Under the pieces are notes generated by a model, which worked only from the letters and a program-made list of their open reading frames with translations, had not been told where the DNA came from and did no database searches. 35,240 nt of DNA from a virus, in the UHGV virus genome UHGV-0174372; one strand, written 5' to 3'. Of this stretch, positions 10,894 to 21,291 are shown in pieces (within the stretch, counting starts at the first letter, position 1; every line of letters begins with the position of its first letter). The translations under genes were made by a program, and so were the position numbers.

Positions 10894-10940
10894 GAGAACC
10901 ACCCTGTAATGGGGTGGTTCTCTCTTTTCTTTTTTTTTCG
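10894..10940 (+). terminator. intrinsic terminator
   Basis: 11-bp stem gagaaccaccc/gggtggttctc followed by a long T-run (ttttctttttttttcg). Confidence 0.7.
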
Positions 10941-10950
10941 ATTAAAATAA

Positions 10951-10978
10951 TTTTCAGATATATATTACCTAGGTGAGA
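10951..10978 (+). promoter_or_regulatory. candidate phage early promoter (TATATTAC core), copy 1
   Basis: ttttcagatatatattacctaggtgaga; a 27-nt tract identical to 19206-19232, placed just after a terminator and about 50 nt upstream of the next ATG. Confidence 0.45.
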
Positions 10979-11028
10979 ATACTGTGTAATCTCTTTACGA
11001 CTTGTTTATTACGTTTAGGAGAAATATC

Positions 11029-11670
11029 ATGAGCCGCATTAATTTAACCGATTTTGTTGATGGTGTTGTGTCTATGGATAAAGGTGTCGTTACGATGGTG
11101 GCACCGAATAGTAAAGTTGTTACTTTAAATCCGGTAGAACTGATTTCTATTTCTACCTGGTTGCGCTTACTTTCTGGTAAGAAACCTAAAGACCAAGCGA
11201 AGGGTGGCTTATTAGTTGGTACACGTGAGTTTGTTTTCAAAGACATAACCCAAGATAAACTGGACAGCATTGCTAAAGAACTGAACGGCAAGCATAAAAC
11301 TCGCGACATCGGGAGTGCCGAACATGACGGTGTAACGTACCATGCATTTCTTGATAGTCACGTAGCATTGCGTGAAAAAGAAAATGGGTTGTACGAATCA
11401 GTTAGTTTCTTTCATTTAATCGCACCAACAGAAAACGAAGCTGTGTATGAAACCGTTGAAAAATCGGCGGAAGCTGTTATGGAAACGGTGTCAGAACTTA
11501 TAGAAGGGATGAAAAGAATCCCACGTGTGTTGAAAGTTACTGATGGGGCTTTCGATTGTTTTAAATTATTACCCCTAATAGCTAGTAAAGAATACGAAGA
11601 TGAGAACACCTTCGGACTATTCGAAATTAGTCTTTCGGAAGCAGTTGTTACTTTCTTTGAAGATTTATGA
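11029..11670 (+). CDS. hypothetical early protein (213 aa)
   Basis: ATG 11029 with aggag at 7-nt spacing (the track start at 11002 is a TTG); more AT-rich codon usage than the structural genes; followed by a terminator. Confidence 0.75.
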   Translation: MSRINLTDFVDGVVSMDKGVVTMVAPNSKVVTLNPVELISISTWLRLLSGKKPKDQAKGGLLVGTREFVFKDITQDKLDSIAKELNGKHKTRDIGSAEHDGVTYHAFLDSHVALREKENGLYESVSFFHLIAPTENEAVYETVEKSAEAVMETVSELIEGMKRIPRVLKVTDGAFDCFKLLPLIASKEYEDENTFGLFEISLSEAVVTFFEDL

Positions 11671-16351: not shown

Positions 16352-16891
16352 GTGGCTGAAAAACGTAGCGCAGCATTTATGCTGTTTCACAAGTGGGTGG
16401 GATGGCGTGTCCCTGAATGGACGACGATTTCAACGTACATGTCTCAGGAACATGGATTGTTCTTACCGGAAGACGAGAAAAAAGCACGCGCGATACTGCT
16501 TAATAAAAAGACTGTATACATGCGACCTTTCGAAGTTGCGGTTTATGCAGAATCGGGCGCGGCGTTAGACGTCCACGACCCACATGACGGGATCATCGTG
16601 TACGGGTATATCATGGAACACTTAGCTGATTGGCTAAATTACATGCAGACCCCACACCTGACAACACGTAAAGTCCCTATGGAGGGCTTGCGTCAGTTTA
16701 ATGCGTTAGCGCGTAAACTGTTCCCGGTAGCGAACCGTTACGGTTACTTTAAGAAACCTGAAGTAACAATGGCGGTTTCCGTACAAGCGTTATTTGGCGA
16801 AGTCCGGTTGGAAACAGAACGGCATCAGTTCAACGATACGATTATGCACCGTATTGAACAGATATACCGTAGACGTGGAGGAATTCTGTAA
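16352..16891 (+). CDS. hypothetical phage protein (about 179 aa); GTG start inferred
   Basis: GTG 16352 lies 6 nt after gaggga and 1 nt after the upstream stop; the first in-frame ATG (16379) has no Shine-Dalgarno. The track ORF is open from 16250. Confidence 0.55.
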   Translation: MAEKRSAAFMLFHKWVGWRVPEWTTISTYMSQEHGLFLPEDEKKARAILLNKKTVYMRPFEVAVYAESGAALDVHDPHDGIIVYGYIMEHLADWLNYMQTPHLTTRKVPMEGLRQFNALARKLFPVANRYGYFKKPEVTMAVSVQALFGEVRLETERHQFNDTIMHRIEQIYRRRGGIL

Positions 16892-18210
16892 TGTCGTTTG
16901 GTCGGTTACAGAACATAGCAAACGTGCACATTGCACAAGCGGCGGGATTACCGGCCATCGACTACGTACCCCTTATCACGGTTCGTGGGGTGACGATTGA
17001 CGTTTACAAAACCATGTCGATAATCCATGCCAGTAATTTCGCTCAGGATTTAACGACCATCACGCACCTCAGTGTGGTGATTCCACTGAGCCAGCAACGT
17101 ATTCTTACGTCGTCGGCAGAAGGGGATTTATCAGTTAAAATCCTGATGCGGACAATGAACAAGAAAACCGTAGCGCAACTGAACTACCGAGGAATTGTGG
17201 TTAACAACCACGATCCTGATATGGAATCACCTACAATGTTTTTGGGTGAATCTGACCAAAAAGGGTTGGGTGTGGTAACGTTGGAACTGATGGATGAATC
17301 GATGTGGTTCCTTCGTTGTCGTCAGGTAGGTGGGATTTACCACGAAACAGATGGATTAAGTGTCGTTCGTGCATTACTTGCTGACACATTACCTACCGGG
17401 GATGCACCAGAAGGTCAGTTGGTTGGTGTGGAATACGAGGAAGAAGAACAACAGCCTTATCGTGACATTTTGATTCCCGATTCGCAAAGTTTTCTTTCGG
17501 TTTTCGATTTCATTCAGAACCGCTACGGTGTGTATAGTCAAGGATTAGGTGTCTTCCTGTATAAACACCGTTGGCATATCTTTCAACCGTGGGATTCTAA
17601 GAAATTCTCTACGGCAAAAAAGAAACTGGTGGTGATTAACCTTCCCAGAGAGAAAGTTGCCTATTTAGATAAAACGTGTCACATTGCAGGTGACGTCATT
17701 TATCTGATTTGTGGTGGCGATGTTCACACCTTCGAAGACAAAGACGCCCTCGCGTTAAATCAGGGAACGGGTTATCGCGTGGGTTCAATCCGTGCCTTAG
17801 ATGGACGTGCAAGTTCTTTCTCTCCAGGCGACGTTTCAGCAACGACGTCAGATTCGTTTGTTTCGGCAGCAGACCCTACACAGTACCCCGGTGGTGTTGT
17901 TAATGCACCTATTGATCCAAACGAGCACTTCAGCGACACGGATAAACCTCGTCGTTCTAAGTTGGCTGCCGCCAGAGGGACACTGACCGCAACGACCTGG
18001 AACCGTTCAGCGTACGGTTTATTGCAGCCGGGTATGGCAGTAAAATATCTGTATGCGAATAATTACGGTGTATACACTCGTTATGGGACGTTGGTTGGTG
18101 AAGTTTTCCAAGCTGCCGTTGACGGTGGTTCGATGGCGTCCCCACAATTTAATACCATTAGTCAATTGACGTTGTGGTTGACTAATGAAAAATTTACAAC
18201 CGCTACGTAA
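16891..18210 (+). CDS. hypothetical phage protein (439 aa), possible virion protein
   Basis: ATG overlaps the upstream TAA (TAATG); contains LGES and SAEG motifs. Confidence 0.8.
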   Translation: MSFGRLQNIANVHIAQAAGLPAIDYVPLITVRGVTIDVYKTMSIIHASNFAQDLTTITHLSVVIPLSQQRILTSSAEGDLSVKILMRTMNKKTVAQLNYRGIVVNNHDPDMESPTMFLGESDQKGLGVVTLELMDESMWFLRCRQVGGIYHETDGLSVVRALLADTLPTGDAPEGQLVGVEYEEEEQQPYRDILIPDSQSFLSVFDFIQNRYGVYSQGLGVFLYKHRWHIFQPWDSKKFSTAKKKLVVINLPREKVAYLDKTCHIAGDVIYLICGGDVHTFEDKDALALNQGTGYRVGSIRALDGRASSFSPGDVSATTSDSFVSAADPTQYPGGVVNAPIDPNEHFSDTDKPRRSKLAAARGTLTATTWNRSAYGLLQPGMAVKYLYANNYGVYTRYGTLVGEVFQAAVDGGSMASPQFNTISQLTLWLTNEKFTTAT

Positions 18211-18242
18211 ATTATGTCGTCCGTAACCTAAAGGATTTGTTA

Positions 18243-19043
18243 ATGAGTAATCTACTTACTTTCAGAATGTCTGGCCAAACGTTAATCCAAATCGACAAGT
18301 TCGAAGAAGAGAATTTTTCGAAACCGTCGAAGTTGTTAGAACGTTGCCTTAATGTTATTCCTGGTGGTGAACAACGCCAGTTGGATTACATCATGGCGTC
18401 CAGTGCTGACAAAACGATTTCTGTTATTTATACCGTAGACGGTGTACAGAATTGTCGCTTATTACCAATCGAAGAAAAAGGGACGTTAGGTCATTTGTTG
18501 TTCCTGCACGCGATCACAACTGCCGTGGTGTCTGGTGCTTTAGAAGCGCAATACGGCTTTGCTTATTGTTACTTCTATGCTCAGAAATTAGCTGCAGCGG
18601 TTATTCCAGGGCAACAAGAAACCTATCCTCAGTATATTGAACGTATTCTACCCTCACACTTTAGTGAGTCGGAAGACTATGACTTCAATGCGTTTCGTTT
18701 TACCGTAGTGGGTGAAGCCCGCGATCCTGAATATACCACGGCGGTGCGTGCGGTGGTGCGCTATTCTGTTATTTCTACAGACAGTGGCACATCAAATAAC
18801 TTTAATGAAGTGTACCCGGTCTTGCAGTTAGGTCCTTATGTGACCTTCAACAGCTATGTACCTTTCAGTTGCCAGCTTGTGGGTCCGCAGGATAACGATT
18901 CTATTCTCCCTGTTGCGGAAGAAAAGTCATTGTTTATTCGCGAATCCGTAGAGGCTATTAGCGATAAGCGCTTTATGATTTCTTCGAAGACGGGCATTAG
19001 CGATCCTGAAATCGCTGTAATGGATAAGATGCAAGGTCTGTAA
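18243..19043 (+). CDS. hypothetical phage protein (266 aa)
   Basis: ATG 18243 with aaagga at about 7-nt spacing (the track start at 18237 is a TTG). Confidence 0.75.
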   Translation: MSNLLTFRMSGQTLIQIDKFEEENFSKPSKLLERCLNVIPGGEQRQLDYIMASSADKTISVIYTVDGVQNCRLLPIEEKGTLGHLLFLHAITTAVVSGALEAQYGFAYCYFYAQKLAAAVIPGQQETYPQYIERILPSHFSESEDYDFNAFRFTVVGEARDPEYTTAVRAVVRYSVISTDSGTSNNFNEVYPVLQLGPYVTFNSYVPFSCQLVGPQDNDSILPVAEEKSLFIRESVEAISDKRFMISSKTGISDPEIAVMDKMQGL

Positions 19044-19090: not shown

Positions 19091-19205
19091 CCTAAACGCC
19101 ACACAGAAGTCATTTCTCCATTAAGACGACTAATTACCCTTCAAAAAGAAAATTGCGTCAGAATGCGTTTTAGAGCGTTCTAGAGGGTATATGGATTCAA
19201 AAAGA

Positions 19206-19232
19206 TTTCAGATATATATTACCTAGGTGAGA
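19206..19232 (+). promoter_or_regulatory. candidate phage early promoter (TATATTAC core), copy 2
   Basis: tttcagatatatattacctaggtgaga, identical to 10952-10978; 47 nt upstream of ATG 19279. Confidence 0.45.
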
Positions 19233-19278
19233 GTTTACGTAATACTCATTTATCGAATACCTAATTAGGAGTTATATC

Positions 19279-19392
19279 ATGATTTCTGTAAAACACAAAA
19301 AAGCTATCTTCGCTGTTGTTATCGCTGTTGTTCTGGGTTGCCTGTACCTGGATATCGACAAAGGCTACGACACTTGCATCGACAACGGTAAT
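19279..19392 (+). CDS. small membrane peptide (37 aa), not in ORF track
   Basis: aggag lies 7 nt upstream of ATG 19279. Hand translation gives MISVKHKKAIFAVVIAVVLGCLYLDIDKGYDTCIRQR: a basic N-terminus then a 16-residue hydrophobic helix. Flanked by the promoter-like element and a terminator. Confidence 0.4.
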
Positions 19393-19430
19393 TCCGTTGC
19401 ACAGTGCACTGGTCGTGGTTAATGTATAAG

Positions 19431-19460
19431 GCACCTTCGGGTGCCCTTAATTTTTTTATT
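19431..19460 (+). terminator. intrinsic terminator
   Basis: Stem ggcacc/ggtgcc with a tight loop, followed by cttaatttttttatt. Confidence 0.6.
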
Positions 19461-19476
19461 AATTGGAGCATAAAAG

Positions 19477-20292
19477 ATGATTACTATTAAAGATTATTTT
19501 CCGCGTGGGCTGAGCAATGAAAACTTCGTTCCAACTGAAGACATTGCCATCGTTGCAGAGTCTAACGATAAGTCTTTTAAACTCTACTTGAGTACGGCAG
19601 CAGGAAAATCCACTCTTATTCTTCGCGAACCTGAAGTGATAAGCATCTGCTCGTTTGGGGGCGGTGTAGAAGGAACGATTAATTGGTTGAAATCCAGAAT
19701 GCATCGTTTACTTATCGTGAACACCGATCCTACGATTCGATTACAGCAATTGAAATCGTTGAATGAAGTTATCGTCGGATTATTGGAACACGAAACGTTC
19801 GGTAATGCTGAGATTGCGGAAGCGATTAAATCTGTAGAACTAATCGAGTGGAGTGATATCGAATACGAACGTGCTGCGTTATTCGCAATGCATGGTGACG
19901 ATAATCCCGTTGTGTTTGCACAAACGTTGGATAATGTTACGGTAACGGCGCGCGTATTGTTTGGTTTACAGCGTGTTGAGTTTGAACTGAAACACGTTTA
20001 TGTAAGTAATACTCCAGAGATGGTGGAAACGTTGACTCGTGCGTTCGCTTACCCATTAGACGGAGAATGGGAACAGCAGATTAATGAAGCGTTAGGCGCA
20101 ATGCTGTTCTTAGCAGGCACACTAAGGAAAGAAGAGAAATTAGAAGGTCGTGTTTATCCAGAATACGATTTTGTTTGTGAAGAATGTGGAACACAGTACC
20201 AAATACGTGTTCCTTTAACCGGCCTGACAATCCCGAGAGCCAACGTGGAATGTAAGGAATGTGGCCATGTTCAATACGTAGCGACTAAATAA
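19477..20292 (+). CDS. hypothetical protein (271 aa) with C-terminal CxxC...CxxC zinc-ribbon-like motif
   Basis: ATG 19477 with GGAG at 8-nt spacing; the C-terminus reads ...FVCEECGTQYQIRVPLTGLTIPRANVECKECGHVQYVATK. Confidence 0.8.
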   Translation: MITIKDYFPRGLSNENFVPTEDIAIVAESNDKSFKLYLSTAAGKSTLILREPEVISICSFGGGVEGTINWLKSRMHRLLIVNTDPTIRLQQLKSLNEVIVGLLEHETFGNAEIAEAIKSVELIEWSDIEYERAALFAMHGDDNPVVFAQTLDNVTVTARVLFGLQRVEFELKHVYVSNTPEMVETLTRAFAYPLDGEWEQQINEALGAMLFLAGTLRKEEKLEGRVYPEYDFVCEECGTQYQIRVPLTGLTIPRANVECKECGHVQYVATK

Positions 20293-20340: not shown

Positions 20341-20403
20341 TCGCAAATTCAACAACTTGGATTAAATAAAAGGCTTAAAGCCTCTAACAATCTTCGAGTA
20401 CAG

Positions 20404-20433
20404 ATCTTCACCGAAAGGAGAAGTAACTACTAA
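20404..20433 (+). pseudogene. truncated remnant of a small-ORF paralog (3' end only, no start codon)
   Basis: cag atc ttc acc gaa agg aga agt aac tac taa is about 80% identical to the 3' end of the small ORF at 20590-20763 (..QIFTEKRSEHY*); the same frame is open back to 20293 but holds no ATG, GTG or TTG. Confidence 0.3.
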
Positions 20434-20469
20434 ATAAAATAAAGGGGTGTGACAGCACCCCTTATCAAA

Positions 20470-20556
20470 GCTTTAACTTTTCGAAAAGAGAAGTTAAAGC
20501 AGGGTACGCTGGTGCTACAGCGTACCCTTTACAACACCACTACGTTTCCGTAGTGG
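20470..20556 (+). other. cluster of three consecutive perfect hairpins (candidate structured RNA or regulatory element)
   Basis: gctttaactt/aagttaaagc (10 bp), agggtacgctg/cagcgtaccct (11 bp) and ccactacg/cgtagtgg (8 bp) back to back, ending about 30 nt before ATG 20590. Confidence 0.35.
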
Positions 20557-20589
20557 ATTTCTTTAATCACCCTACAAAGAGGGCTTACC

Positions 20590-20763
20590 ATGAACAATGG
20601 TTACTACTTTACCGACAAAATGCTTGCAGAACAGAGTGCAGCAAAGACCAATTTACAGCAACGTATCTACAAGTATAGTCAGCTCGGCATGGATAAACGG
20701 TTAAAACCGTCTACCAACCGTTTCACGCAGATATTCACTGAAAAGAGGAGTGAACACTACTAA
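20590..20763 (+). CDS. small hypothetical protein (57 aa), ORF-a; not in ORF track
   Basis: ATG 20590 with aagaggg about 6 nt upstream. Translation MNNGYYFTDKMLAEQSAAKTNLQQRIYKYSQLGMDKRLKPSTNRFTQIFTEKRSEHY shares the pattern QQRIYKYSQLG / NQRMDEYVRLG with the next small ORF. Confidence 0.45.
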   Translation: MNNGYYFTDKMLAEQSAAKTNLQQRIYKYSQLGMDKRLKPSTNRFTQIFTEKRSEHY

Positions 20764-20843
20764 CAAATAAAGGAGAGGCGTGTCAGCGCCTCTCCTCCTC
20801 GTACAGTAACCTGCCGAGATGGTGGTCGTAGGTATAATAAAAA

Positions 20844-20958
20844 AGGGGGTGGTGAAGCACCCCTTTTCATAGCTTTAACTTTTCCAAAGAGAAGTTAAAG
20901 CAGTAGAGACTGGCGAAACAGTCTCTACTGTACGGTGTCAACACATAAAGTTGTTGAC
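20844..20958 (+). other. second hairpin cluster (variant copy of 20443-20556)
   Basis: ggggtg/cacccc hairpin with T-run, then gctttaactt/aagttaaagc, gtagagactg/cagtctctac (10 bp) and gtcaaca/tgttgac (7 bp), all before ATG 20990. Confidence 0.35.
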
Positions 20959-20989
20959 GTTTTTTACAACATTACGAAAGGTAATGAAA

Positions 20990-21151
20990 ATGAACGATTA
21001 TCAAATACAGCTGTTCAATACCGCGATGCGAAATCGTGAAAAACAAATTCAGTTTAACCAACGCATGGACGAATATGTTCGTCTCGGCCTCGTTGCGGCA
21101 CCGAAAACGGTTAACAACCACAATATTCACCAACCACCTGTAAGGAGGTAA
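20990..21151 (+). CDS. small hypothetical protein (53 aa), ORF-b, diverged paralog of ORF-a
   Basis: ATG 20990 with gaaagg at 8-nt spacing (the track start at 20951 is a TTG). Translation MNDYQIQLFNTAMRNREKQIQFNQRMDEYVRLGLVAAPKTVNNHNIHQPPVRR. Confidence 0.45.
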   Translation: MNDYQIQLFNTAMRNREKQIQFNQRMDEYVRLGLVAAPKTVNNHNIHQPPVRR

Positions 21152-21291
21152 GTTACTAACTAATAAAGGGGGTGTCGCCACACCCCCTACTTAGTTCAGT
21201 AGTTATCTTCCGTTCATAATTAATAAGCCTTCTGTTTTTTTGCTTTTCGGGACGCATAAGGGGTCGTAGGGGGAGCCGAAGCTCCCCAGAC

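What the first reader, a model, noticed from the sequence alone, without database searches (positions are those of the whole stretch)
19279..19392. Unannotated 37-aa membrane peptide gene between promoter-like element and terminator
The ORF falls below the track's length cut-off but has all the signals of a gene: promoter-like element at 19206-19232, aggag Shine-Dalgarno, ATG, one predicted transmembrane helix with a basic N-terminus (KHKK) and two C-terminal Cys, and its own terminator at 19431-19460. Small early membrane peptides in phages often act in superinfection exclusion, lysis timing or host takeover.
Basis: seen in the sequence. Interest (0 to 1): 0.55.

Follow-up and report, generated by a model that had tools for sequence, protein, structure and literature searches.

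The report
Conserved early membrane microprotein gene
This is a real, strongly conserved 47-codon gene (not 37) of a giant "phiKZ-like" phage; it sits behind an early-type phage promoter and encodes a tiny membrane-anchored protein whose tail should face the periplasm, and because it is the orthologue of an annotated but uncharacterised SPN3US gene, the gene is ordinary while its function remains open.

Summary
It runs 19279-19422 and encodes 47 aa with three Cys; the "stop" at 19390-92 is AAT. It is the syntenic orthologue of Salmonella phage SPN3US gp66 (PHROG 8574, "hypothetical protein").

The family has about 38 distinct members of 45-51 aa. Those with a named source are Salmonella/Erwinia jumbo phages; the tblastn hit records also include Escherichia and Proteus phages. 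Purifying selection is strong: in the last 20 codons pS is 0.56-0.84 and pN 0.11-0.21.

All members share the same layout:
- a basic N-terminus (net +2 to +4);
- a variable apolar helix;
- a nearly invariant tail, DY-x-x-C-x2-NGNS-x3-C-TGRG-COOH.

AlphaFold predicts a helix, an NGNS turn and a short helix, with the two invariant Cys flanking the turn. The lipobox-like Cys21 occurs in only 16 of 33 members, so lipidation is not a family trait.

The upstream "promoter-like element" is a ~40-nt phage-specific motif. It has two exact copies in the window and 10 in SPN3US, all intergenic and co-oriented with the next gene. This matches virion-RNA-polymerase early promoters of chimalliviruses. The terminator is confirmed.

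Function is untested. The best guess is an early N-in/C-out inner-membrane microprotein whose periplasmic loop binds a conserved partner (superinfection exclusion, like T4 Spackle). It resembles MgrB in architecture but is not homologous. Interest is modest.

The parts
19192..19233 (+). Conserved ~40-nt phage-specific promoter motif (TGGATTCAAAAAGATTTCAGATATATATTACCTAGGTGAGAG). It is inferred to be an early promoter for the virion RNA polymerase, with a TSS expected around 19228-19233.
   Evidence: The exact 25-mer occurs twice in the window against 0 expected. A 45-nt query finds 290 places in 63 relatives. Aligned copies share about 40 nt and lie 48-56 nt before the first ATG in 7 of the 8 copies aligned; the eighth is in the scrambled SPFM7 record. 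All 10 copies in SPN3US are intergenic and co-oriented with the next gene, with 0 in shuffles. The literature describes chimallivirus early promoters of this kind. The TSS and timing are not measured.
19234..19278 (+). 5' UTR with a Shine-Dalgarno AGGAG at 19267-19271, 7 nt before the ATG. In relatives the UTR carries a conserved CGACTAT...AGGAG element (TCGAATAC in this copy).
19279..19422 (+). Protein-coding gene, 47 codons plus TAA. It is the orthologue of SPN3US gp66 and a member of PHROG 8574.
19279..19302 (+). Residues 1-8 (MISVKHKK), a basic N-terminus with net charge +3. It is inferred to be cytoplasmic.
   Evidence: Net N-terminal charge across the family is +2 to +4 while the tail is about 0, which fits the positive-inside rule.
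19303..19350 (+). Residues 9-24 (AIFAVVIAVVLGCLYL), the apolar helix that acts as the membrane anchor. It contains the variable Cys21 (19339-19341) within a lipobox-like VLG|C.
   Evidence: These columns are 99% apolar or uncharged but variable in sequence (entropy 2.0 bits). AlphaFold gives one helix over residues 4-35. Cys21 is present in 16 of 33 members.
19351..19419 (+). Residues 25-47, the tail, inferred to be periplasmic. It holds invariant C33 (19375-19377), G37, S39, C43 (19405-19407) and T44-G45-R46, plus the nearly invariant C-terminal G47.
   Evidence: Column entropy is 0.59 bits for residues 33-47. pN is 0.11-0.21 against pS 0.56-0.84. AlphaFold places a turn at 36-39 and a short helix at 40-44.
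19428..19457 (+). Intrinsic terminator: stem GGCACC/GGUGCC with a UUCG loop (19430-19445), flanked by AA/CUU, then T7 (19451-19457).
   Evidence: The stem is unchanged in the 89%-identical relative L008.
10938..10979 (+). Second copy of the same promoter motif in the window. It follows a terminator hairpin and lies 53 nt before the ATG at 11030. It belongs to the same regulatory family, not to this gene.

Best explanation
SHOWN: 19279-19422 is a bona fide 47-codon gene and the orthologue of SPN3US gp66. It lies directly behind a conserved phage-specific promoter motif and ahead of an intrinsic terminator.

INFERRED, about 0.7-0.85 each:
- The motif is an early promoter read by the injected virion RNA polymerase, so the peptide is made in the first minutes of infection.
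- The peptide inserts into the inner membrane N-in/C-out. The variable apolar helix is only an anchor.
- The 23-residue tail lies in the periplasm, where C33 and C43 form a disulfide. The disulfide staples a helix-NGNS turn-helix hairpin ending in the invariant TGRG carboxy-terminus.

INFERRED, about 0.3-0.4, my committed guess: this stapled loop binds a partner that is conserved across SPN3US-like phages, most plausibly a component of the incoming phage's own cell-wall-penetrating or DNA-delivery apparatus. That would protect the already infected cell from superinfection or 'lysis from without'. T4 Spackle, an early periplasmic protein, does this by inhibiting the tail lysozyme gp5.
For: Gene reality:
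- PHROG 8574 matches over the full length, E=3.4e-23.
- tblastn hits occur in 61 jumbo-phage records.
- Synteny gp64-gp65-gp66 is kept.
- The family has 33 aligned members of 45-51 aa.
- pS is much greater than pN.
- The close relative shows 3 synonymous and 1 non-synonymous change with no indels.
- Each alternative frame carries stops in at least two of the relatives.

Early promoter:
- In all 10 SPN3US copies the motif is intergenic and co-oriented with the next gene.
- The literature says early vRNAP promoters of phiKZ-like phages are highly conserved AT-rich motifs about 10 bp upstream of the TSS, preceding hypothetical genes (PMC7598289; PMC11512511; PMC10914365).
- The window is phiKZ-like: it has a PhiKZ-type MCP.

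Topology:
- N-terminal charge is +2 to +4, the tail is about 0, and the apolar stretch is 13-22 residues.
- AlphaFold mean pLDDT is 86, with helix 4-35, a turn, and helix 40-44.
- The two Cys are invariant.

Tail as the functional part: entropy is 0.59 bits for the tail against 2.0 for the helix. The last 15 residues are 14/15 identical to SPN3US, whereas the neighbouring gp65 is 57% identical.

Spackle analogy: T4 Spackle is an early, periplasmic inhibitor of gp5 (PMC7677548).

Core status: gp66 is the only gene of the variable small-gene cluster after gp65 (SPN3US gp66-72 and its counterparts in ChrisDB, Wellington and Stratton) that is still detectable in this window by tblastn.
Against: - There is no experimental datum for any family member. 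The literature searches found nothing on gp66. A 2026 jumbo-phage review does not mention superinfection exclusion, holins or membrane proteins at all.
- There is no homology to any known exclusion or defence protein: PADLOC, Pfam, NCBIfam and PDB were all negative.
- TSS and timing are not measured for any SPN3US-like phage. The motif also has a weak sigma-70-like layout (TTGATT, 17 nt, TATATT in some copies). That would still mean early expression, but by a different polymerase.
- Exclusion genes are usually accessory and fast-evolving, whereas this one is core and slow-evolving.
- The disulfide and the topology are predictions. The helix in this phage is only 16 residues long.
- Cys21 could instead make this a lipoprotein.
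Confidence: 0.4

Rival explanations
1. Host-takeover regulator of the MgrB/SafA/MzrA type. The membrane-anchored peptide binds the periplasmic or transmembrane part of a conserved host inner-membrane protein (a sensor kinase, transporter, division protein or cell-wall enzyme) and switches it off or on early in infection.
For: The layout is almost the same as MgrB. MgrB is 47 aa and bitopic with N-in, has a ~22-residue periplasmic region with two essential conserved Cys (C28, C39), a conserved Gly between them and an important C-terminal residue (PMC8404706). The phage family has C33/C43, G37 and the invariant TGRG end. Extreme tail conservation across phages of Salmonella, Erwinia, Escherichia and Proteus fits a target conserved in Enterobacterales.
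Against: There is no sequence relationship. The Pfam MgrB model does not hit, and hhalign gives 23% probability with only the helix aligned. In MgrB the helix sequence matters, whereas here it is free to vary. No candidate target is known.
Confidence: 0.2
2. In this phage, and in the other Cys21-bearing members, the product is a lipoprotein. Signal peptidase II would cleave before Cys21 and the 27-residue lipopeptide (+2 = Leu) would be sorted to the outer membrane. There it would mask a receptor or channel, as T5 Llp does on FhuA.
For: VVLG|C passes my transcription of the permissive PROSITE-type lipobox pattern, with Cys at position 21 and K/R in the first 7 residues; 14 of 33 members pass. 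UniRef labels the Kwan orthologue 'Lipoprotein'. The -1 residue is A or G in 15 of 16 Cys21 members, and +2 is S, A, G or L. T5 Llp is an early exclusion lipoprotein (PMC9586334).
Against: None of the 33 members fits the strict lipobox [LVI][ASTVI][GAS]C. Cys21 is replaced by V, S, A, T, W, I or L in 17 of 33 members, SPN3US included, while the tail stays invariant, so the family's function cannot depend on lipidation. Small residues at -1 are also common in Cys-less members. MgrB likewise has a VLAC inside its helix. There is no homology to Llp or Cor.
Confidence: 0.15
3. Lysis-timing factor: a holin, antiholin or spanin-like component.
For: It is a small single-helix membrane protein with a periplasmic tail. 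There is a weak hit to an Rz-like spanin PHROG (phrog_4297, E=0.042).
Against: That hit covers only the hydrophobic N-terminus and is sub-threshold. A 23-residue tail cannot span the periplasm. There is no partner gene and no adjacent endolysin; in SPN3US the endolysin gp198 is about 110 kb away. The gene sits in an early-type operon.
Confidence: 0.07
4. Secreted periplasmic peptide. The N-terminal helix would be a cleavable Sec signal (AxA-like sites such as AFA|V in SPN3US), releasing a free disulfide-looped peptide of about 27 residues.
For: Small residues lie at -1 and -3 in most members, and the N-region and H-region lengths are typical of signal peptides.
Against: The apolar stretch usually continues 4-6 residues past the putative site, for 18-20 residues in total. 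AlphaFold models one continuous helix from 4 to 35. No signal-peptide predictor was available here.
Confidence: 0.08
5. Not a functional protein: a chance ORF, or a leader peptide / attenuator (promoter, short ORF, terminator) that controls the downstream 271-aa gene.
For: The arrangement of promoter, short ORF, terminator and next gene looks superficially like an attenuator.
Against: Amino-acid-level purifying selection is strong, and length and motif are kept across genera. In relatives the ORF is followed directly by other genes without a terminator, and it sits as the 1st to 4th gene of the operon.
Confidence: 0.02

Closest known systems
SPN3US gp66 (SPN3US_0066, AEP83899.1) and its orthologues; PHROG 8574
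   Same: The length is the same (47 aa). The gene holds the same position after the gp64 (virion protein) and gp65 orthologues and behind the same promoter motif. It has the same basic N-terminus, single helix and C-x9-C-TGRG end, with 53% identity overall and 14/15 in the last 15 residues.
   Different: Here the gene is monocistronic with its own terminator, whereas in SPN3US its stop overlaps the start of gp67 (TAATG). This copy has Cys21 (VLG|C) where SPN3US has AFA|V. The gp67-69 counterparts are absent from the window. The family has no known function.
MgrB (E. coli/Salmonella 47-aa inhibitor of the sensor kinase PhoQ)
   Same: Both are 47 aa and N-in/C-out bitopic. Both have a ~22-residue periplasmic region with two conserved Cys 10-11 residues apart, a conserved Gly between them, a functionally important C-terminal residue, and a Cys inside the helix in a lipobox-like context (one search compared).
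   Different: No homology is detectable. The MgrB helix is sequence-specific, whereas here the helix is variable. MgrB is a host feedback regulator, not a phage early gene.
T4 Spackle (gp61.3), early periplasmic superinfection-exclusion protein
   Same: Both are small early phage proteins with an N-terminal hydrophobic segment that act, or are predicted to act, in the periplasm. Both are conserved together with the phage lineage (my own knowledge for the 97-aa precursor size).
   Different: Spackle is about twice as large and is a multi-helix globular domain. There is no sequence similarity; the only PHROG hit of note is 8574. The target here is unknown.
T5 Llp / Cor-type exclusion lipoproteins
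   Same: Both are small early phage envelope proteins. This copy has a lipobox-like VLG|C, and UniRef auto-labels one orthologue 'Lipoprotein'.
   Different: The lipobox is non-canonical and the Cys is absent from half of the family. The mature part would be only 27 residues. There is no homology.

Membership tests
PHROG 8574 / SPN3US gp66-like microproteins | Full-length match to the family profile | tested here: met
   E=3.4e-23, residues 1-47 against profile positions 1-47 of 47
PHROG 8574 / SPN3US gp66-like microproteins | Invariant C-x9-C-T-G-R-[GS] carboxy-terminus, basic N-terminus and one apolar helix | tested here: met
PHROG 8574 / SPN3US gp66-like microproteins | Synteny: located downstream of the gp64/gp65 orthologues, behind the conserved promoter motif and upstream of the helicase | tested here: met
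Chimallivirus early (virion-RNAP) promoters | Highly conserved AT-rich motif repeated in intergenic regions and co-oriented with downstream operons | tested here: met
   definition taken
Chimallivirus early (virion-RNAP) promoters | TSS about 10 nt downstream of the motif core, with transcripts appearing first in infection independently of host RNAP | not testable with these tools
   No transcript data were found for this phage or for SPN3US-like phages.
Bacterial lipoproteins (signal peptidase II substrates), including Llp/Cor-type phage lipoproteins | Lipobox [LVI][ASTVI][GAS]C after an n-region and h-region | tested here: inconclusive
   VLG|C fails the strict pattern at -2 (Leu) but passes the permissive PROSITE-type pattern. 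Across the family, 0 of 33 pass the strict pattern and 14 of 33 the permissive one. Both patterns were written from memory.
Bacterial lipoproteins (signal peptidase II substrates), including Llp/Cor-type phage lipoproteins | The acylated Cys is conserved in the family | tested here: not met
   Cys21 is present in 16 of 33 members and absent in SPN3US and others.
MgrB family | Sequence or profile homology to MgrB | tested here: not met
   No Pfam hit at E<=1. hhalign probability is 22.7%, with the helix only aligned.
MgrB family | Binding and inhibition of PhoQ | not testable with these tools
   This needs reporter or FRET assays.
Spanins (Rz/Rz1) | i-spanin with a long periplasmic coiled coil, or o-spanin lipoprotein with a partner gene, located in a lysis cassette | tested here: not met
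   There is only a sub-threshold hit on the hydrophobic segment (E=0.042). The tail is 23 residues. There is no partner gene, and the SPN3US endolysin is about 110 kb away.
Known anti-phage / superinfection-exclusion protein families (PADLOC-DB) | Profile match | tested here: not met
   0 families at E<=10 for four family members.
Entericidin-type small lipoproteins (considered from memory because of size and a GNS[IV] motif) | Match to the Pfam Entericidin profile | tested here: not met
   No such hit at E<=1.

The most novel reading that the evidence does not exclude
The peptide could be a lineage-wide core early factor that acts on the membrane events special to nucleus-forming jumbo phages. 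Among the small genes that follow gp65 in the four relatives tested, it is the only one still detectable in this window. If the promoter inference holds, it would be made from the very first transcripts and would insert into the inner membrane. It might help to seal, shape or later open the membrane-bound early-infection (EPI) vesicle or the injection site, rather than being a conventional exclusion protein. The Cys21 <-> Val/Ser toggling would then be a natural swap between a lipid anchor and a helix anchor for the same periplasmic or luminal loop.
Probability: 0.06. Interest if true: 0.8.

Novelty: new member of a known kind. Interest (0 to 1): 0.33.

Why it matters
The literature searches here found no characterised envelope-acting protein of nucleus-forming jumbo phages. 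The 2026 review that was searched does not mention superinfection exclusion, holins, spanins or membrane proteins.

This family is well suited to experiment:
- It is tiny (47 aa).
- It was found in 61 of the related Salmonella/Erwinia/Escherichia/Proteus jumbo-phage records searched.
- It probably belongs to the earliest gene class.
- It has an unusually sharp functional signature: a disulfide-stapled loop and an invariant TGRG end.

It can be handled by peptide synthesis, point mutants and expression in trans. If it blocks superinfection or reprograms a host membrane protein, it would be a new microprotein effector and a handle on early envelope events.

For annotation, the case shows that length cut-offs hide conserved genes and that the ~40-nt motif can be used to map early operons in this lineage.

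Tried and rejected
- **Profile libraries.** Pfam, NCBIfam, PADLOC and PDB-sequence searches of several family members gave nothing above noise. The CRF-receptor, thionin and melan-A hits are sub-threshold and were rejected.
- **Single-sequence search.** The word-indexed search found only one near-identical protein. The exhaustive phmmer and the profile search were needed to recover the family.
- **MgrB homology.** Tested and rejected.
- **Spanin, holin and leader-peptide readings.** Rejected on tail length, missing partner or endolysin, and amino-acid-level selection.
- **Apparent second copy in SPFM7.** This variant (H50) is a locally scrambled record and probably an assembly artefact.
- **Literature.** A full-text search for 'TATATTAC' returned only irrelevant papers. 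Ceyssens et al. 2014 is not held, so the phiKZ consensus could not be compared base by base. 'SPN3US gp66' gave no relevant paper.
- **RNA genes.** tRNA and Rfam scans of the window were negative.
- **Structure.** No fold search was run, because a 47-residue helix hairpin gives meaningless matches.
- **Disulfide geometry.** The Cys-Cys distance could not be measured because model coordinates are not exposed.

Full report
**1. What is in the sequence**

The region reads: AGGAG (19267-19271), 7 nt, ATG (19279), then an open frame to TAA at 19420-19422. The product is 47 aa: MISVKHKKAIFAVVIAVVLGCLYLDIDKGYDTCIDNGNSVAQCTGRG.

Eight bases after the stop codon lies the hairpin GGCACC-UUCG-GGUGCC (19430-19445). 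It is followed by CTTAA and seven T (19451-19457), folds at -11.6 kcal/mol, and was picked up by the terminator scan. The sigma-70 scan finds nothing upstream of the ORF.

**2. Genomic setting**

The window belongs to a phiKZ-like (nucleus-forming, Chimalliviridae-type) jumbo phage.
- It encodes a PhiKZ-type major capsid protein, a DnaB-like helicase, a polymerase and many virion proteins.
- At the DNA level it matches no GenBank phage, apart from a ~40-90-nt stretch just upstream of the ORF.
- At the protein level it is collinear with Salmonella phage SPN3US and the Erwinia jumbo phages. Window 16891-18210 corresponds to SPN3US gp64 (virion protein) and 18237-19043 to gp65 (57% identity). The small ORF corresponds to SPN3US_0066, an annotated 47-aa 'hypothetical protein'.
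- SPN3US carries the split multisubunit RNA polymerase genes typical of this group. The literature reports that it forms a phage nucleus and early vesicles.

**3. Is it a gene?**

Yes, on five lines of evidence.
- The peptide matches PHROG 8574 end to end at E=3.4e-23.
- tblastn finds it in 61 jumbo-phage records: Salmonella 30, Erwinia 27, Escherichia 2, 'Enterobacteria' 1, Proteus 1.
- An exhaustive phmmer search of 1.84 billion representatives and a profile search of 5.8 billion proteins recover only 45-51-aa proteins. Where the contig is long enough to judge, it is of jumbo-phage size. All that carry a name are called 'hypothetical', apart from one automatic UniRef 'Lipoprotein' label.
- Across eight orthologues with DNA in hand, ORF length is 46-47 codons. 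Each alternative frame carries stops in at least two of the relatives. In the last 20 codons, synonymous sites are saturated (pS 0.56-0.84 against the window) while pN is 0.11-0.21.
- The closest relative is a 26-kb Logan contig, 88.7% identical overall. It differs in the ORF at only 4 of 144 positions: three third-position synonymous changes and one T32I, with no indels. The adjacent 271-aa gene is about 78% identical and riddled with indels.

**4. Anatomy of the protein family**

These features come from the 33-sequence alignment.
- N-terminus: net charge +2 to +4, often H-K-R/K.
- Apolar stretch: 13-22 residues, mostly 16-20. It is 99% uncharged but free to vary in sequence (mean column entropy 2.0 bits).
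- Tail: D-Y-[ND]-x-C-x-x-N-G-N-S-x-A-x-C-T-G-R-G-COOH, entropy 0.59 bits. C33, G37, S39, C43, T44, G45 and R46 are invariant. Net tail charge is about 0.
- The positive-inside rule therefore places the N-terminus in the cytoplasm and the tail in the periplasm.
- AlphaFold2 with this alignment gives mean pLDDT 86. It predicts one helix (4-35), an NGNS turn (36-39) and a short helix (40-44), so the two invariant Cys face each other across the turn. A disulfide is the obvious inference for a periplasmic tail, but it is not shown.

The helix behaves as an anchor and the tail as the business end. The last 15 residues are 14/15 identical between this phage and SPN3US, although the neighbouring gp65 is only 57% identical.

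**5. The lipobox question**

In this phage the helix ends in V-L-G-C21-L. This passes a permissive PROSITE-style lipoprotein pattern, and UniRef auto-labels the Kwan orthologue 'Lipoprotein'.

Against a lipoprotein reading:
- No member fits the strict lipobox [LVI][ASTVI][GAS]C.
- Cys21 is present in only 16 of 33 members and is V, S, A, T, W, I or L in the rest, SPN3US included.
- The presence or absence of Cys21 does not follow host genus.

Lipidation cannot be what the family needs. For this particular copy it remains possible. Either anchor leaves the conserved tail in the periplasm.

**6. The promoter-like element**

- The 25-mer TTTCAGATATATATTACCTAGGTGA occurs twice exactly in the window (10952 and 19206), against 0 in 100 shuffles.
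- A 45-nt query finds 290 places in 63 related phage records; in nearly all of the 40 best places listed, nothing is annotated under the match.
- Aligned copies share about 40 nt (TTGATTAAAAA..ATTTCAGATATATATTACCTAGGTGAGA). They lie 48-56 nt upstream of the first ATG of an operon, followed by a conserved CGACTAT...AGGAG leader.
- In the complete SPN3US genome I found 10 copies with at most 5 mismatches, against 0 in five shuffles. All are on the + strand, all intergenic, and all co-oriented with the next gene (gp5, 22, 55, 66, 76, 101, 125, 135, 180, 249).

This is what the literature describes for early promoters of RNAP-encoding jumbo phages. These are a highly conserved AT-rich motif about 10 bp upstream of the TSS, found upstream of early operons that mostly encode hypothetical proteins, and read by the injected virion RNA polymerase (PMC7598289; PMC11512511; PMC10914365).

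No transcript map was found for an SPN3US-like phage, so 'early' is an inference. A weak sigma-70-like layout in some copies (TTGATT, 17 nt, TATATT) would also give early expression.

In the relatives examined, the gp66-like gene lies downstream of a copy of this motif as the 1st to 4th gene of the run of same-strand genes. Here it is the first gene and is closed off by its own terminator.

**7. What it probably does**

No library gives a functional hint, and nothing has been published on gp66.

The anatomy points to a membrane-tethered periplasmic ligand made at the very start of infection. Two precedents fit.
- **T4 Spackle.** This is an early periplasmic protein that binds and inhibits the tail lysozyme gp5 of superinfecting phage (PMC7677548). 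If the partner here is the phage's own penetration machinery, that would explain why the tail is conserved with the phage lineage across host genera.
- **MgrB.** This host protein is 47 aa and N-in bitopic. It has two essential periplasmic Cys, a conserved Gly between them and an important C-terminal residue, and it inhibits the sensor kinase PhoQ (PMC8404706). The resemblance in layout is striking, but there is no homology, and unlike MgrB the helix here is not sequence-constrained.

I commit to the Spackle-like exclusion/protection model at about 0.3-0.4 and to a host-membrane-protein modulator at about 0.2.

Lysis roles are unlikely. The tail is too short for a spanin, there is no partner gene, the SPN3US orthologue is about 110 kb from the endolysin, and the operon is of the early type. 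A leader-peptide or attenuator reading is excluded by the amino-acid-level selection and by the absence of the terminator in relatives.

**8. Verdict**

- The gene is a new member of a known but uncharacterised family (SPN3US gp66 / PHROG 8574), so it is not a discovery of a new kind of element.
- Its value is as a compact, sharply defined candidate for the first envelope-acting effector of SPN3US-like nucleus-forming phages.

Noticed in passing
window 20436-20530 and 20838-20930 (plus 21161-21186): There are two copies, 402 nt apart, of a ~95-nt module made of three consecutive hairpins. The third stem has a different sequence in the two copies but keeps its pairing, and hairpin 1 has a third copy. 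Each module precedes a small + strand ORF (57 aa at 20590-20763; 66 aa at 20951-21151, the latter with a QxQFNQR motif like the SPN3US gp71/gp72 paralogues). The scan calls these '-' strand terminators: 18 terminator-like sites in 17.5-21.5 kb against 3.7 expected. Indels relative to the close relative L008 fall within this hairpin-rich stretch (20355-20917). There was no Rfam or tRNA hit. This could be a structured regulatory RNA or a mobile palindromic element.
   Followed up: partly
window 19165-19195: A block of TAGAG/CTCTA-type repeats (gcgttttagagcgttctagagggta) lies between the gp65 terminator and the promoter motif. It is conserved at the same place in SPN3US, ChrisDB and Caitlin but is absent from the other promoter copy at 10952. 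It may be a locus-specific regulator site.
   Followed up: no
window 10938-10979: A second exact copy of the early-type promoter motif follows a strong terminator hairpin (10898-10921) and lies 53 nt before the ATG at 11030. It corresponds to the SPN3US copy upstream of gp55.
   Followed up: partly
window 19477-20292: The 271-aa gene after the terminator has a C-terminal CxxC...CxxC zinc-ribbon (sub-threshold Pfam Zn_ribbon hits) and a weak hit to phrog_10180. It evolves much faster than the peptide gene: it is about 78% identical to L008, with many indels.
   Followed up: no
P0007 (381-aa metagenomic protein, not in the window): This protein carries four tandem copies of a Y-x-x-C-I-G-N-G-x-S-x-x-Q-C-x-x-A-Y unit, similar to the peptide's C-x9-C loop, after N-terminal hydrophobic helices. 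That suggests the loop is a portable mini-module. No Pfam or NCBIfam family matches.
   Followed up: partly
L007 (Salmonella phage SPFM7, LR535904.1 175.8-176.6 kb): The gp65-gp68 region of this public record appears to be cut into short blocks (tens of nt) and reordered. The gp66 tail, helix and N-terminus appear in permuted order in one frame. This is probably an assembly artefact, and it explains the odd tblastn hits for several SPFM records.
   Followed up: partly
L002 3078-3085 and equivalents in L003, L004, L006: In most relatives the gp66 stop overlaps or abuts the start of a conserved ~60-aa soluble protein (gp67-like, MxFSDAQFxEFLxxPRIKREWDNL...), which suggests translational coupling. 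That gene is missing from this window.
   Followed up: partly
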